The notes under the pieces: model-generated
What the model was told of the DNA's origin: nothing
Databases searched by the model: none
Seen by the model: the letters and a program-made list of their open reading frames with translations, nothing else
Translations under genes and position numbers: made by a program
Shown: positions 58,780-60,770 of the stretch, piece after piece
Position numbering within the stretch: the first letter of the stretch is position 1
Layout of the letters: each line of letters begins with the position of its first letter
Origin: a phage
Assembly (NCBI GenBank): GCA_014687725.1
Contig: GCA_014687725.1_4094.1
Length of the DNA: 64,000 bases
Strand: one strand, 5' to 3'

Positions 58780-58893
58780 TTAAACACAAGTAGACAGGGG
58801 AAGCTCCTAGTGAACAACCTTTATGTACAGGCGAATTGTTAAAATTCAGCCTGGACAAATGCGATCACTAGGATTCTCCCCAGGCTAAACCCC

Positions 58894-59130
58894 GTAATCA
58901 TAGGTAGTCATAAGTAATCATATATAAACATTTAAGTAATCATTTATAATCACTGTAGTGATCAGTAGTGATCAGTAGTGAGTACTAGAGTACAGGAATG
59001 TTCACGTTTAATCAAGAACGTAGCAGTACTGATATGCCACTAAGTAGGCAGAGGAAGTCTGCCGTACTTTGTAGTTTCCAAGCTCCTTTTCCATTTTTCA
59101 AATTACATCAAATGTAATCAAAAGTAATCA
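58894..59130. repeat. dispersed short direct repeats (A)GTAATCA, at least 5 copies
   Basis: Copies at about 58894, 58914, 58936, 59114, 59124. Confidence 0.5.
58955..58981. repeat. tandem 10-bp repeat GTAGTGATCA, about 2.7 copies
   Basis: GTAGTGATCAGTAGTGATCAGTAGTGA. Confidence 0.6.
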
Positions 59131-59407
59131 CGCAATGATTAGTACTGAATTATTACTTTCACCTTAATTTCAATTACCCCTTTACCCTTCGGGGTAAAAT
59201 TCCATTACCCCTTGAGGCTCCAGCAAAAAGTTGGTTAGTACTCCATCCTAAATCTCGATCCTAAAAATTTTGGAGTACCTATGAAATAAAAGTTGGATCT
59301 TCGAAAGTTGAAATTTACGTTGGGACGTTTATGATTTGTGGGATATAATGATGTTTGTAGTCGGGTAGTTCTCAAGAATATCAGTACTGAATGGTGAAAG
59401 AAAGTTA

Positions 59408-59435
59408 TTGACATTATGATTCAGTACTGTATAAT
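59408..59435 (+). promoter_or_regulatory. orphan sigma70-type promoter TTGACA-N16-TATAAT in noncoding region
   Basis: TTGACA 59408-59413, TATAAT 59430-59435; no ORF downstream. Confidence 0.5.
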
Positions 59436-59779
59436 GTTCTACATAGAGAGATGAGTTGCTGCGAACAATTCATTTACTCTACCTCCTGTCGTGAGACAGT
59501 ACAGAAAAGATAGTTCCTCCTGTGGTGGTACATCTTTTTGAACCTCATATGAAAATCGTAATAACAGTACTGATATTAACAGAATGGTGTCAGTACTGAT
59601 TTTAATCTAAAGCATTATGCCACCAGCTTGTGCTGGTGGATTCCCTCTAACAGTATTCAGTACTACATGATGGTCTTCATCCTCCTAGGGTAACATAGTG
59701 AGGGCTATGATGGCAGTACTGAATACTCCCTTTCAAAAGATAGATCTATGGTATAGTACTGACGGATTTTGGGTGTAGT

Positions 59780-59970
59780 TACCCTGGATGGATTTTGGAC
59801 GTAGATATGTCTAGTCCTCCAGAAGTCTGGAAGTAAAGATGGCTATCCATCTAGACGGCTAAACGGCTAGATTTCTGGATGGCTGGATGGCTAGACGTTT
59901 GGACGGCTAGATGGTTACACGTCTGGAAGTATAGACGGCTAAATCAAAATTTTATTTTGTTTTTTCCAAT
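59780..59970. repeat. iteron-like cluster of short direct repeats followed by AT-rich tract
   Basis: GACGGCTA about 4 copies, GGCTAGA/CTAGAC about 3, CTGGATGG about 3, GTCTGGAAGT 2; then AAATCAAAATTTTATTTTGTTTTTT. Confidence 0.5.
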
Positions 59971-60099
59971 AGTTCCCCTACCGCGTGGGGATAGTTTCCC
60001 CGCAGTATCTGGAGTTAGATTTTTCTGAATCTGGAATCATTATCTTATAAACTGGGGGCAATGTCAACGGCCTGGACGGATATTTTTAAAAATTTTTTC

Positions 60100-60360
60100 A
60101 GTACTGAATTTTGGGCGTAACTATGCACCCGGTGGGCTTGAGTCTTTCTCGACTTGATGGAACTATTATACAGTACTGGAAAAATAAAGCAATACCCTGG
60201 AAGCAAAAAAGTTTTAATTAATTTGCTTGCTATCCTGGGCCGGACTATGGTACTATATTTCAGTACTGAGAAAGTGCTTTTACCTGCTAGGGTGCGGGAG
60301 TGTATCCTTTTTAAATTTACTGAATTTTGGGCGTAGTTCCGCACCCTGTGGGTTAGTGCC
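60100..60360. repeat. repeated element TTTTGGGCGTA...GCACCC-GTGGG and inverted repeat AGGGTGCGG/CCGCACCCT
   Basis: Copies near 60105-60135 and 60325-60355; related copy at 62215-62285. Confidence 0.4.
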
Positions 60361-60685
60361 TTGTGTCCGGCTTATGTAGTAATTATACGCTTTTTCAGGA
60401 TCAAGTCAATACCTAAAAACAAAATAATTGAAAATAATTTAACGCGTTTAAACGGCCCGTAAAGCCCTGGAATGATTGGAATGGTGCAAATGTATAGCTT
60501 AGGTGTATTAATGCGTTAGAATGCGTCTGAGGCCGTTTTATGGGGTGTAGTAGTGATTTGGTTGATTCAGTACTGAATGATAGTACTACTATATAGAAAG
60601 ATAGTTCCCCTGGATGGTTGCAGTACTGAAAGATAGTTCCCCTATATAGAAAGAAAACTATTTTAAAAGTATTTGTAGAAAGTAC

Positions 60686-60744
60686 TTGCAAAGTATTGGG
60701 AAAGGTGTAGAATGTTTTACATCGAGACGGGGGATACGCTCCCG
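60686..60744 (+). promoter_or_regulatory. early-type promoter TTGCAA-N16-TAGAAT plus leader stem-loop (PeSL-like module)
   Basis: TTGCAA 60686-60691, TAGAAT 60708-60713, hairpin CGGGGG-ATACG-CTCCCG 60728-60744. Confidence 0.6.
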
Positions 60745-60770
60745 ACTCACTTTTAAAAGAGATTAAAACG

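What the first reader, a model, noticed from the sequence alone, without database searches (positions are those of the whole stretch)
58780..60770. Two-kilobase noncoding region with iteron-like repeats and an AT-rich tract
This is the only long ORF-poor stretch in the window. It contains (A)GTAATCA repeats (58894-59130), a tandem 10-bp repeat (58955-58981), a dense cluster of GACGGCTA / GGCTAGA / CTGGATGG / GTCTGGAAGT repeats (59780-59940) followed by an AT-rich tract (59941-59970), UUCG- and UUGU-loop hairpins, an orphan consensus promoter (59408) and many CAGTACTG copies. Iterons beside an AT-rich tract are classic origin architecture; a packaging site or genome-end region are alternatives. 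The orphan promoter could drive a small RNA.
Basis: partly seen in the sequence, partly recalled or inferred. Interest (0 to 1): 0.6.

Follow-up and report, generated by a model that had tools for sequence, protein, structure and literature searches.

The report
Phage genome end with MetJ-box array
This untranslated stretch is where the packaged DNA of a giant E. coli virus begins, and its "iterons" match a row of 13 to 15 binding sites for the host's methionine repressor MetJ, a kind of array that I also found in the terminal repeats of unrelated phages and could not find described.

Summary
The window comes from an Asteriusvirus (PBECO4/121Q/G17-like, about 350 kb). The repeats, hairpins, promoter and AT tract are real, and 58780-60770 is truly noncoding.

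The region straddles the boundary of the ~21-kb direct terminal repeat (DTR). Seven independently deposited relatives end at the nucleotide equivalent to 59042|59043. One of them was confirmed by PhageTerm plus restriction digests.

The 1.73 kb from the terminus to the first early gene is an untranslated leader, at least as conserved as the neighbouring genes.

The "iteron" cluster is a strict 8-bp-period array. With a published MetJ met-box matrix it scores as 13 contiguous operator boxes (95 bits). It is the only such site in 64 kb; E. coli operators have 2-4 boxes. Similar arrays (8-28 boxes) lie in terminal repeats of other jumbo genera, of T5-like Aeromonas/Vibrio/Providencia phages (at the position of T5's injection-stop region) and of a T7-like phage. 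Klebsiella relatives carry Fur-box-like repeats in the same slot.

The orphan promoter heads a ~100-nt candidate sRNA with three hairpins and compensatory changes.

An origin function is untested. MetJ binding is inferred from sequence only.

The parts
58840..58934 (.). Conserved block on the unique side of the DTR boundary. It holds the inverted repeat AGCCTGG(58848-54)/CCAGGCT(58880-86) and the start of the left GTAATCA set.
   Evidence: About 0.9 identity across relatives, while the flanks 58780-58839 and 58935-59023 drop to 0.5-0.68. Sequence.
58894..58952 (.). Left set of GTAATCA repeats with a 10-bp period, 91-149 nt before the terminus. Candidate terminase or accessory-protein binding sites.
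   Evidence: TRF period 10, 4.8 copies. Same offsets in G17 (-149, -129).
58955..58981 (.). Strain-specific perfect 10-bp tandem repeat (GTAGTGATCA x2.7) inside a hypervariable segment.
   Evidence: G17, WPEC5, UB and SHEFM2K carry different sequence here.
59042..59043 (.). Physical genome terminus, which is also the left boundary of the direct terminal repeat (...ATATGCCACTA | AGTAGGCAGAGG...). The DTR runs rightward from 59043.
   Evidence: The G17 DTR (20,668 bp, 0 mismatches between copies) ends here. Six further records begin at exactly this base. Literature support from PhageTerm, restriction digests and read coverage.
59047..59063 (.). Terminal hairpin GGCAGA-GGAAG-TCTGCC. It contains GAAGTC at nt 12-17 from the end (59054-59059).
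   Evidence: GAAGTC sits at the same offset from the left end in CBB, BF and XbC2, and AAAGTC in Muenster.
59098..59130 (.). Right set of GTAATCA repeats with a 10-bp period, 56-88 nt inside the terminus.
   Evidence: TRF period 10, 3.3 copies. vB_Ec-M-J carries one extra whole 10-bp unit.
59181..59198 (+). Hairpin TTTACCC-TTCG-GGGTAAA.
   Evidence: Sequence. Conserved across relatives.
59237..59279 (.). Conserved hairpin AGTACTCCA...TGGAGTACC with ATCCTAAA direct repeats in the loop.
   Evidence: 98-99% conserved within the genus. 93% identical at nt 86-128 of the DTR of Klebsiella phage fENko-Kae01.
59408..59435 (+). Consensus sigma-70 promoter, TTGACA-16-TATAAT with AGTACTG immediately upstream of the -10 element, followed by the TACAT start motif shared with the early-gene promoters.
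   Evidence: 12 of 12 match. Conserved. Same architecture at 16530, 20843, 31444 and 63907.
59443..59545 (+). Candidate sRNA of about 100 nt: 5' hairpin, CUGUC-GUGA-GACAG hairpin, and a third hairpin followed by U5. CCUCCU is invariant in the third hairpin. The start point is inferred.
   Evidence: MFE -30.9 kcal/mol, z -3.5. 6 of 29 pairs have compensatory changes. 91% of cells are paired against 40-50% in slid controls. The covariation score is reached by 0 of 500 shuffles. No Rfam match.
59620..59639 (.). Palindrome CCACCAGC-TTGT-GCTGGTGG, which is the E. coli Chi octamer in both orientations, 577 nt from the end.
   Evidence: The loop is flipped (TTGT to ACAA) in 9 of the 15 relatives aligned. 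The arms are partly compensated in A4 and diverged in EJP2. The arms are exact in the distant fENko-Kae01.
59805..59940 (.). Array of MetJ-type met boxes in one 8-bp register. There are 13 contiguous boxes at 59837-59940, plus boxes at 59805-12 and 59821-28.
   Evidence: 95.2 bits with the published matrix. It is the only site in 64 kb. Random 64-kb sequences reach at most 3 boxes and 21 bits. Orthologous arrays of 8-15 boxes occur in 15 relatives.
59941..59967 (.). AT-rich tract AAATCAAAATTTTATTTTGTTTTTTCC directly after the array.
   Evidence: T-rich but different in sequence in Mimasvirus and Eneladusvirus.
59961..60067 (.). Conserved element TTTTTCCAATAGTTCCCCTACCGCG plus hairpins. On the minus strand it holds a TTGACA-17-GATAAT promoter-like site (60067-60039) that points toward the array.
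   Evidence: Conserved after the array in BF, Yen9-04, CBB, GAP32 and XbC2, and at 813-921 of fENko-Kae01.
60165..60310 (.). Block shared with the terminal repeat of Klebsiella phage Muenster (75% identity). It has promoter-like sites on both strands and a terminator-like hairpin at 60289-60308.
60382..60409 (-). Promoter-like site TTGACT-16-TATAAT followed by TACAT, on the minus strand.
   Evidence: The surrounding 60380-60540 is 97-100% conserved.
60510..60545 (.). Element AATGCGTTAGAATGCGTCTGAGGCCGTTTTATGGGG, which resembles the IRD' element of the T5 injection-stop region.
   Evidence: 13 of 13 core match to T5 9349-9361. Pairwise E = 6e-5. T5 has three copies in its left terminal repeat.
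60686..60744 (+). First early-gene promoter of the DTR (AAAGTACTTGCAA-16-TAGAAT-TACAT) and a 5' hairpin. The first gene is 60771-61133.
   Evidence: The gene matches phrog_7352. The same promoter type recurs at 61148, 61823, 62382, 63184 and 63892.

Best explanation
The region is the junction between the unique genome and the ~21-kb direct terminal repeat (DTR) of an Asteriusvirus jumbo phage.

What is shown:
- The packaged DNA starts at 59043. The cut site lies between two sets of GTAATCA repeats with a 10-bp period, and it is followed by a hairpin carrying GAAGTC at a fixed offset from the end.
- The next 1.73 kb is a conserved untranslated leader of the terminal repeat. It precedes an array of small early genes driven by host sigma-70-type promoters.

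What is inferred:
- The 'iterons' are 13-15 in-register operator boxes for the host methionine repressor MetJ. They most likely work by cooperative binding of MetJ-SAM dimers, one per 8-bp box. That would lay a repressor filament of roughly 110-140 bp on each copy of the terminal repeat.
- This makes the leader a docking platform for host proteins of the same kind as the untranslated injection-stop region of the T5 terminal repeat.
- I favour a cis-acting role, at about 55% of the MetJ scenario. In that role the array is a nucleoprotein block or anchor near the inner edge of the terminal repeat whose occupancy depends on host SAM. It would gate DNA entry, transcription across the terminus, or exonuclease progress.
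- The alternative within the MetJ scenario is a passive decoy, at about 30%. Replicated phage DNA would titrate MetJ and derepress methionine/SAM synthesis.
- The leader also carries a candidate sRNA gene of about 100 nt under a consensus promoter.
For: Terminus.
- The two G17 DTR copies are identical over 20,668 bp, and the boundary aligns to 59042|59043.
- CRJP21, E9.1, ELP-22, BF17, vB_Ec-M-J and fEgEco12 all begin with AGTAGGCAGAGGAAGTCTGCC, which is window 59043. vB_Ec-M-J annotates a DTR at 1..21525.
- fEgEco12 termini were determined by PhageTerm and confirmed by restriction digests. G17 was mapped by read coverage. Sharanji gave a DTR of 20,668 bp by PhageTerm.
- GAAGTC lies at nt 12-17 from the end in four genomes of three genera, with AAAGTC in a fifth (Muenster).

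Leader conservation. Identity to the window is 82-93.5% in seven of eight relatives (67.5% in EJP2), against 62-90% for the adjacent early genes and 40-81% for the unique-side flank. The internal ORFs are broken in relatives.

MetJ array.
- My implementation of the published matrix and criteria reproduces the scores of nine E. coli K-12 operators. The largest K-12 operator has 4 boxes and 31.2 bits.
- The window has exactly one site: 13 boxes, 95.2 bits. One hundred random 64-kb sequences gave at most 3 boxes and 21 bits.
- All 15 other Asteriusvirus loci have 8-15 boxes at the same place. They differ by whole 8-bp units. Substitutions fall mainly at the degenerate matrix positions 1, 2 and 4.
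- Mimasvirus and Eneladusvirus carry 11-14 boxes, at about 650-800 nt from the record start where that start is the DTR left end (CBB, XbC2, BF).
- T5-like AhSzq-1 has 28 boxes (221 bits) in the noncoding gap beyond dmp/A1/A2. Pontus has 15 boxes next to T5-type DRD repeats and DnaA boxes. The Providencia PR1 hit lies at 9.6 kb inside its annotated repeat region. T7-like PGT2 has 9 boxes at nt 38-109.
- Of the 96 phage records that match the Aeromonas array, 95 infect Enterobacterales, Vibrionales or Aeromonadales. These orders have MetJ.
- No phage record encodes a MetJ homologue.

Interchangeable host-factor slot. Klebsiella relatives have Fur-box-like repeats between the same flanking elements, and the T5 injection-stop region has them too.

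sRNA.
Against: - No binding or expression data exist; MetJ occupancy is inferred from sequence alone.
- Phage boxes carry G at position 6 in 55-65% of units, against about 10% in natural boxes. The bias is the same in all three lineages, so the true binder could have a slightly different specificity.
- The array does not overlap a recognisable promoter, as natural met operators do.
- T5 itself and the Klebsiella relatives lack the array, so it is not essential to terminal-repeat function.
- One array-bearing phage, XbC2, is recorded as infecting Xanthomonas, a genus outside the MetJ-bearing orders.
- Two-step DNA entry has never been shown for these jumbo phages, and it is unknown which end enters first.
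- A single infecting genome offers only about 26-30 boxes, too few to titrate MetJ early. This weakens the decoy version, but it also means any effect may be small.
- The termini were mapped in relatives, not in this phage's own reads.
Confidence: 0.6

Rival explanations
1. Replication origin. The 8-bp repeats would be initiator-binding iterons, the AT tract a DNA-unwinding element, and the flanking promoters would supply transcriptional activation or an R-loop primer, as at the origins of T4 or T7.
For: Tandem repeats lie directly beside a 27-nt AT-rich tract. Convergent promoter-like sites flank them. Cumulative GC skew has its local minimum near 58-59 kb. The noncoding DNA is highly conserved.
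Against: - The repeat unit is 8 bp and fits the MetJ matrix, unlike 17-22-bp Rep iterons.
- No initiator-like gene is adjacent; the flanking proteins match only PHROGs of unknown function.
- The leader has no DnaA boxes.
- The AT tract is not conserved in sequence in other genera, and Klebsiella relatives replace the array with Fur-like repeats.
- The skew switch coincides with a change of gene block and with the DTR boundary.
- For T5, origins map near the genome centre, not in the analogous region (paper read).
Confidence: 0.12
2. The array is bound by a phage-encoded protein and its likeness to met boxes is convergent. Candidates are a ribbon-helix-helix early regulator or the small terminase subunit. 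The array would then be part of the packaging or termination signal that defines the DTR.
For: The array is always in or next to a terminal repeat, within about 1 kb of a DTR boundary where that boundary is known. The position-6 G bias is shared by all lineages and departs from natural met boxes. Ribbon-helix-helix proteins in general bind short tandem repeats (own knowledge).
Against: The T7-like, T5-like and jumbo phages that carry it share no obvious DNA-binding protein, whereas their hosts share MetJ. Close relatives package to homologous termini without it, namely Klebsiella Muenster and fENko-Kae01; so does T5, at its own termini. No MetJ-like gene occurs in any phage record. The number of boxes varies from 8 to 15 among near-identical strains.
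Confidence: 0.13
3. Pure decoy. The array has no cis function. Amplified phage DNA soaks up MetJ and so derepresses the host methionine/SAM regulon to feed phage synthesis. The Fur-like arrays of Klebsiella phages would derepress iron uptake in the same way.
For: These are operator-quality boxes in numbers far above any host operator. Copy number varies by whole units, as expected of a dosage trait. The array sits in the DTR, which doubles the dose. The slot can instead hold sites for another metabolite-sensing repressor.
Against: A decoy could sit anywhere, yet the array keeps its place near the DTR boundary in independent lineages, and reads in the same orientation inward from the left end in the three where the end is known. 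A decoy should favour consensus AGACGTCT boxes, but position 6 is biased away from consensus. T5-like phages destroy host DNA early, which makes derepression pointless for them (paper outline and section headings; own knowledge).
Confidence: 0.15

Closest known systems
Bacteriophage T5 injection-stop signal (iss), the untranslated Repeat Region 3 of the left terminal repeat
   Same: - It is a 1-1.7-kb untranslated stretch, more conserved than the neighbouring genes and full of direct repeats, inverted repeats and palindromes. It lies inside a long terminal repeat within about 1 kb of the repeat's inner boundary, next to small early genes read by host RNA polymerase.
- It carries arrays of host-factor sites: DnaA boxes according to Davison's preprint.
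- One element of about 35 nt is shared, with core GCGTTAGAATGCG.
- In T5-like phages of Aeromonas and Vibrio the same region holds 15-28 MetJ-type boxes, and Providencia PR1 matches the array at about 9.6 kb inside its annotated repeat.
   Different: There are no DnaA boxes here. No A1/A2 genes are known for this phage. Two-step DNA transfer has not been shown for jumbo myoviruses. Here the leader lies at the edge of the DTR from which the early genes are transcribed away, so it is 'inner' only in the right-hand copy. T5 itself has no met-box array.
MetJ operators (met boxes) of the E. coli methionine regulon
   Same: The boxes are 8 bp long and stand in strict tandem register. The profile R-G-A-Y-G-K-C-T fits the published AGACGTCT matrix. 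Mean score is about 7.3 bits per box, within the 5-11 bits per box of natural operators. CTAG or CTGG lies at the box junctions.
   Different: There are 13-15 boxes (up to 28 in AhSzq-1) against 2-4 in K-12. The array is not placed over the promoter of a methionine gene. Position 6 is G in more than half of the boxes. The array sits on phage DNA in a terminal repeat.
Iteron-type origins (plasmid or phage Rep-iteron origins, lambda ori)
   Same: Tandem direct repeats lie next to an AT-rich tract in a long noncoding region.
   Different: The unit is 8 bp, not 17-22 bp. No adjacent initiator gene is evident, and there are no DnaA boxes. The repeats match a host repressor operator.
Host transcription-factor sites used by phages or as titration loci: Spo0A boxes in phi29, the datA DnaA-titrating locus (own knowledge, not tested here)
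   Same: The concept is the same: clusters of sites for a host regulator on DNA that is not one of that regulator's metabolic target genes, used to read or to buffer the host's state.
   Different: The regulator differs (MetJ-SAM), the sites form a tandem in-phase array, and the location is a terminal repeat. No experimental link exists yet.

Membership tests
Asteriusvirus direct-terminal-repeat boundary (physical genome end) | The sequence at the site is the same as at experimentally mapped termini of congeners. | tested here: met
   Seven records end or begin at the base equivalent to 59043. Mapping was by PhageTerm plus restriction digests for fEgEco12, by PhageTerm for Sharanji and by coverage for G17.
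Asteriusvirus direct-terminal-repeat boundary (physical genome end) | A read-start peak and two-fold coverage in this phage's own sequencing data. | not testable with these tools
   No reads are available.
MetJ operator (met-box array) | At least 2 adjacent 8-bp boxes, each at or above one quarter of the consensus score, with a total at or above the consensus score (criteria of PMC3228920). | tested here: met
   13 contiguous boxes, 95.2 bits, the only site in 64 kb. Random sequences reach at most 3 boxes.
MetJ operator (met-box array) | The operator overlaps or adjoins the promoter of a methionine or SAM gene. | tested here: not met
   No met gene is nearby. The nearest promoter-like sites are about 100 nt (minus strand, 60039-60067) and about 400 nt (59408) away.
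MetJ operator (met-box array) | The host encodes MetJ. | tested here: met
   The hosts of 95 of 96 array-bearing records belong to orders with MetJ. The exception is XbC2, recorded as a Xanthomonas phage.
MetJ operator (met-box array) | SAM-dependent binding by MetJ. | not testable with these tools
   This needs EMSA, footprinting or ChIP.
Iteron-type replication origin | Direct repeats of about 17-22 bp bound by an initiator that is encoded nearby. | tested here: not met
   The period is 8 bp. The flanking genes match only PHROGs of unknown function.
Iteron-type replication origin | An AT-rich unwinding element and DnaA boxes. | tested here: inconclusive
   An AT tract is present at 59941-59967. 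No DnaA box with up to 1 mismatch occurs in 59043-60770.
Iteron-type replication origin | A peak of marker frequency, or autonomous replication. | not testable with these tools
   This needs an experiment.
T5-type injection-stop region | A conserved untranslated repeat region inside the long terminal repeat, near its inner boundary. | tested here: met
T5-type injection-stop region | Paired DnaA boxes within IRC/IRD inverted repeats. | tested here: not met
   There are no DnaA boxes. Only one IRD'-like element of about 35 nt is present.
T5-type injection-stop region | A1/A2 genes and demonstrated two-step DNA transfer. | not tested
   The window covers only 5 kb of the DTR, and no experiment is available.
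Bacterial or phage small RNA gene | A promoter, a structured transcript, an intrinsic terminator and covariation. | tested here: met
   The promoter matches 12 of 12. The fold has three hairpins plus U5, z -3.5. Six pairs have compensatory changes, and the covariation score is reached by 0 of 500 shuffles. The U-tract is weaker in A4, EJP2 and JNE01. There is no Rfam family. Expression is untested.
Chi recombination hotspot | The octamer GCTGGTGG, oriented toward a DNA end and kept by selection. | tested here: inconclusive
   Present in both orientations at 59620-59639, and exact in the distant fENko-Kae01. However, it is mutated with partial compensation in A4 and diverged in EJP2, and Chi octamers occur 7 times in the window anyway.

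The most novel reading that the evidence does not exclude
The terminal repeats of many unrelated phages with direct terminal repeats (jumbo RaK2-like, T5-like, some T7-like) carry an interchangeable cassette of tandem operator sites for host proteins that both sense a metabolite and polymerise on DNA. The cassettes seen are MetJ-SAM here, Fur-Fe in Klebsiella relatives and in T5, and DnaA-ATP in T5-likes. The phage would use the occupancy of this cassette as a read-out of host physiology, to gate DNA entry or the early programme. This would give a molecular basis for the long-unexplained T5 'injection stop signal', and it would imply two-step DNA entry in jumbo phages.
Probability: 0.2. Interest if true: 0.85.

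Novelty: new variant of a known kind. Interest (0 to 1): 0.7.

Why it matters
The genome end itself was already known for relatives. Knowing where it is allows this phage's genome to be oriented correctly, with a ~21-kb repeat that assemblies collapse.

The new element is the met-box super-array. If MetJ binds it, this would be an example of a virulent phage carrying a large operator array for a host metabolic repressor, in the DNA that defines its terminal repeat. I found no earlier report of one in two full-text searches.

Because the same arrays sit in the injection-stop-type region of T5-like phages, and Fur-like or DnaA sites fill the equivalent place elsewhere, the finding turns an old open question into simple experiments. 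That question is what the conserved untranslated region of long terminal repeats does. The experiments are gel shifts, metJ or fur mutants, and array deletions.

It also offers a cheap bioinformatic marker for terminal repeats in assemblies of phages that infect enterobacteria and vibrios.

Tried and rejected
- Rfam gave nothing in the region, at gathering thresholds over the whole window and at E up to 1 over 58700-60850.
- BLAST of the array against 5,426 complete E. coli genomes gave no match. This was uninformative, because host operators are too short for BLAST. I replaced it with the published weight matrix.
- An exact-match scan of IMG/VR for the terminal 25-mer returned only phage 121Q, so I used GenBank phage records for the comparisons.
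- The internal ORFs (59, 60, 92 and 99 aa) are rejected as genes.
- DnaA boxes are absent from the leader.
- I looked for a motif shared by the left and right DTR boundaries of G17 that could be a common terminase site. Nothing beyond generic AGTACT-type words turned up.
- Chi as a RecBCD shield is attractive: both orientations lie 577 nt from the end and are exact in fENko-Kae01. It is undermined by loss in A4 and EJP2 and by seven Chi octamers elsewhere in the window, so I left it as inconclusive.
- GC skew as evidence for an origin is confounded by gene blocks.
- A phage-encoded MetJ does not exist in 50,697 records.
- Two full-text searches for MetJ or met boxes together with phage terms found no report of such arrays. 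A search for Asteriusvirus transcriptomes found nothing usable.
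Full report
**Identity of the window.** Megablast of 58000-61500 against GenBank phages gives 142 records. The best matches are E. coli jumbo phages of the genus Asteriusvirus (JP4, PBECO4, 121Q, G17, phAPEC6 and others) at 90-95% identity. The region lies between two gene blocks. On its left is an array of roughly 60-aa paralogous ORFs on the + strand (phrog_11711). On its right is a series of small genes, each behind a strong sigma-70-type promoter of the form AAAAGTACTTGCAA-16-TATAAT-TACAT.

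**Check of the observation.** The stretch 58780-60770 is the longest ORF-free part of the window.
- The four ORFs of 59-99 aa inside it match no PHROG or Pfam family, whereas both flanking genes match PHROGs.
- All four are interrupted by stops or frameshifts in several relatives.
- G17, A4, ph0011, CRJP21, BF17, vB_Ec-M-J and fEgEco12 were annotated with no gene there.
- CAGTACTG occurs 50 times in the window against 1 expected, and it is about 7 times denser in the leader. It is a genome-wide motif: AGTACT itself is ten-fold over-represented, at 217 against 21.
- The orphan promoter matches the consensus at 12 of 12 positions.

**The region contains the physical end of the genome.** The G17 record (370,817 bp, linear) carries two identical copies of a 20,668-bp direct terminal repeat (DTR). 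The inner boundary of the left copy aligns to window 59042|59043, at ...ATATGCCACTA|AGTAGGCAGAGGAAGTCTGCC....
- Six other records deposited with terminal repeats begin with exactly this sequence: CRJP21, E9.1, ELP-22, BF17, vB_Ec-M-J and fEgEco12. vB_Ec-M-J annotates 'Direct Terminal Repeats 1..21525'.
- The fEgEco12 paper reports a 20,993-bp DTR from PhageTerm and confirms the linear map by restriction digests. G17's redundancy was seen as doubled read coverage. Sharanji's PhageTerm DTR is 20,668 bp.
- In window orientation the DTR runs rightward from 59043.
- Two sets of GTAATCA repeats with a 10-bp period flank the cut, at 58894-58952 and 59098-59130. In vB_Ec-M-J one whole extra unit is inserted.
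- A hairpin follows the cut. Its GAAGTC sits at nt 12-17 from the end. The same hexamer lies at the same offset at the left ends of CBB, BF and XbC2, and AAAGTC in Muenster. These phages belong to other genera.
- The segment just outside the DTR (58935-59023) is hypervariable.
- I infer that the phased repeats and the GAAGTC hairpin belong to the terminase recognition and cleavage site. This is not shown.

**The leader is under selection.** From 59043 to the first early promoter, identity to the window is 82-93.5% in seven of eight relatives and 67.5% in EJP2. That equals or exceeds the adjacent early genes (62-90%) in most of them and is well above the unique-side flank (40-81%). Blocks at 59220-59340, 59980-60300 and 60380-60540 are 96-100% identical. 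Several sub-elements recur in the terminal repeats of other genera:
- 59237-59279 in Klebsiella fENko-Kae01;
- 60165-60310 in Klebsiella Muenster;
- 59961-60067 in fENko-Kae01, Yersinia fHe-Yen9-04 and Serratia BF.

**The 'iterons'.** The cluster at 59793-59945 is a strict 8-bp-period tandem array. Read in the frame AGACGGCT AAACGGCT AGATTTCT GGATGGCT..., it resembles the met box, the 8-bp tandem operator unit of the methionine repressor MetJ.
- I took the half-site weight matrix and the site criteria from a comparative study of the MetJ regulon (PMC3228920), together with its table of E. coli K-12 operators. My implementation reproduces the published scores of nine operators.
- Applied to the whole window, it finds exactly one site: 59837-59940, with 13 contiguous boxes and 95.2 bits. 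Two more in-register boxes lie at 59805 and 59821.
- The largest K-12 operator has 4 boxes and 31.2 bits. One hundred random 64-kb sequences gave at most 3 boxes and 21 bits.
- All 15 other Asteriusvirus loci have the array at the same place, about 795 nt from the end. They carry 8-15 boxes and differ by whole 8-bp units.
- The base profile is R-G-A-Y-G-K-C-T. Variation is concentrated at the positions the matrix leaves degenerate. The one systematic departure is G at position 6.

**The same arrays occur elsewhere, and always in terminal repeats.**
- Mimasvirus (GAP32, CBB, XbC2) and Eneladusvirus (Serratia BF, Yersinia fHe-Yen9-04) have 11-14 in-register boxes. In CBB, XbC2 and BF they lie about 650-800 nt from the record start. 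In CBB this is inside the annotated 22,456-bp 'redundant repeat'.
- The T7-like phage PGT2 has 9 boxes at nt 38-109.
- T5-like phages of Aeromonas, Vibrio and Providencia have them too. AhSzq-1 has 28 contiguous boxes (221 bits) in the noncoding gap about 3 kb beyond dmp, A1 and A2. Pontus has 15 boxes that abut T5-type GTGCAAATCCGACA repeats and perfect DnaA boxes. The Providencia PR1 hit lies at 9.6 kb within its annotated repeat region.
- This is the position of the T5 'injection stop signal', which is annotated at 9140-10149 of the 10,219-bp left terminal repeat. Davison describes that region as a highly conserved untranslated stretch with eight DnaA boxes.
- T5 itself has no met-box array.
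- Of the 96 records hit by the Aeromonas array, all but one infect Enterobacterales, Vibrionales or Aeromonadales. These orders possess MetJ.
- No phage in the collection encodes a MetJ homologue.
- Two full-text searches found no report of met boxes in phage genomes. The library is incomplete, so that is weak evidence of novelty.

**An interchangeable slot.** In the Klebsiella jumbo phages fENko-Kae01 and Muenster the elements that flank the array are kept, but the array is replaced by repeats of the type GAGAATGATAATGATTCTC.
- Against the classical 19-bp Fur box (GATAATGATAATCATTATC, from my own knowledge), these leaders give 6 and 12 hits at 14 of 19 or better, against about 0.3 expected. 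The T5 injection-stop region gives 7 hits against 0.1 expected.
- The leaders that carry met-box arrays give none.
- I take this as support for the view that the slot holds sites for host DNA-binding proteins. The Fur assignment is a consensus match only.

**Other parts of the leader.**
- The promoter at 59408 is followed by three hairpins, the last with a U5 tract (59443-59545). MFE is -30.9 kcal/mol with z -3.5.
- On eight distinct sequences, 91% of cells pair against 40-50% when partners are slid. Six pairs carry compensatory changes, and the covariation score is reached by 0 of 500 shuffles. G-U pairs occur only when the + strand is read. With only eight related sequences this is moderate evidence for a small RNA of about 100 nt. 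Its CCUCCU is invariant.
- The UUGU hairpin is CCACCAGC-TTGT-GCTGGTGG, which is Chi in both orientations. Its loop is inverted (ACAA) in 9 of the 15 relatives aligned, the signature of recombination between the arms. Its arms are exact in fENko-Kae01 but mutated in A4 and EJP2. I leave its role open.
- The element at 60510-60545 resembles the T5 IRD' element.

**How it most likely works.**
- Shown: the location of the genome end, the noncoding status and conservation of the leader, the statistical match of the array to MetJ operators, and its recurrence in terminal repeats.
- Inferred: host MetJ-SAM dimers bind cooperatively, one per box, forming a filament on each DTR copy.
- I favour a cis-acting, host-state-dependent block or anchor analogous to the T5 injection-stop region. 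My reasons are:
  - the array keeps its place near the DTR boundary in independent lineages;
  - it keeps its orientation, reading inward from the left end, in the three lineages where the end is known;
  - MetJ, Fur-like and DnaA sites substitute for one another although they control unrelated regulons, and these proteins share cooperative assembly on DNA (own knowledge);
  - one infecting genome offers too few sites to titrate a repressor.
- A passive decoy that derepresses methionine/SAM synthesis once the DNA is amplified is the main alternative. An origin and a phage-encoded binder are less likely rivals.

**Limits.** There are no binding, expression or read data. The termini come from relatives. 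Phage XbC2 is recorded on Xanthomonas, which lacks MetJ. The position-6 bias could mean a binder other than MetJ. It is not known which end of these genomes enters the cell first.

Noticed in passing
window 1-64000: AGTACT occurs 217 times against 21 expected. This ten-fold excess is unique among palindromic hexamers; the next is GAATTC at 1.8-fold. CAGTACTG occurs 50 times against 1. The motif lies in coding and noncoding DNA, and forms the block just upstream of the -10 element (AGTACTGTATAAT) in consensus promoters at 16530, 20843, 31444, 59423 and 63907. Several other 6-bp palindromes are absent altogether (AGCGCT, AGGCCT, CAGCTG, CCATGG, CCCGGG, CCGCGG). Unexplained.
   Followed up: partly
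L020 (Muenster) 785-905, 1073-1097, 1306-1324; L021 (fENko-Kae01) 700-800; L024 (T5) 9653-9718: Fur-box-like repeats (at least 14 of 19 matches to GATAATGATAATCATTATC) fill the slot that holds the MetJ-box array in the window. They also occur in the T5 injection-stop region. They are absent from the leaders that carry met-box arrays, apart from a single such site in Serratia BF.
   Followed up: partly
window 59043-59059; L027, L018, L026, L020 positions 1-17: The left genome ends of jumbo phages from different genera share GAAGTC (AAAGTC in Muenster) at nt 12-17 from the terminus. This may be a conserved determinant of terminase cleavage.
   Followed up: partly
window 59620-59639 and relatives: The 4-nt loop of the Chi-containing palindrome is TTGT in some strains and its reverse complement ACAA in others. 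This is a flip-flop inversion, which implies recombination or template switching between the arms.
   Followed up: partly
window 14363, 30952, 47649, 47907, 48162, 59620, 59632: The E. coli Chi octamer occurs seven times (both orientations counted) against about 0.5 expected. Outside the palindrome its orientation follows gene orientation.
   Followed up: no
window 54500-58780: A tandem array of roughly 60-aa paralogous ORFs (phrog_11711) lies on the + strand. It has negative GC skew and strongly positive AT skew, the opposite of the other + strand genes. Its gene content differs greatly between close relatives.
   Followed up: no
window 40268-54471 (- strand): About twelve tandem paralogues of 250-440 aa. 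The two that I scanned match PHROGs annotated 'regulator of chromosome condensation' (RCC1-like).
   Followed up: no
window 60670-60766: The early promoter and its 5' hairpin unit are about 78% identical to sequences in rV5-like (Vequintavirinae) phages of about 145 kb. Some of those records are deposited as Campylobacter phages. This suggests exchange of early promoter modules, and possibly mislabelled hosts.
   Followed up: no
L026 (XbC2) 648-775: A Mimasvirus recorded as a Xanthomonas vesicatoria phage carries a 14-box met-box array, although Xanthomonas is outside the orders reported to have MetJ. Either the host assignment or the MetJ link needs checking.
   Followed up: no
window 36-301, 1811-1884: There are four tRNA genes: Ser-ACT, which is an unusual anticodon call, Met-CAT, Asn-GTT and Thr-TGT.
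   Followed up: no
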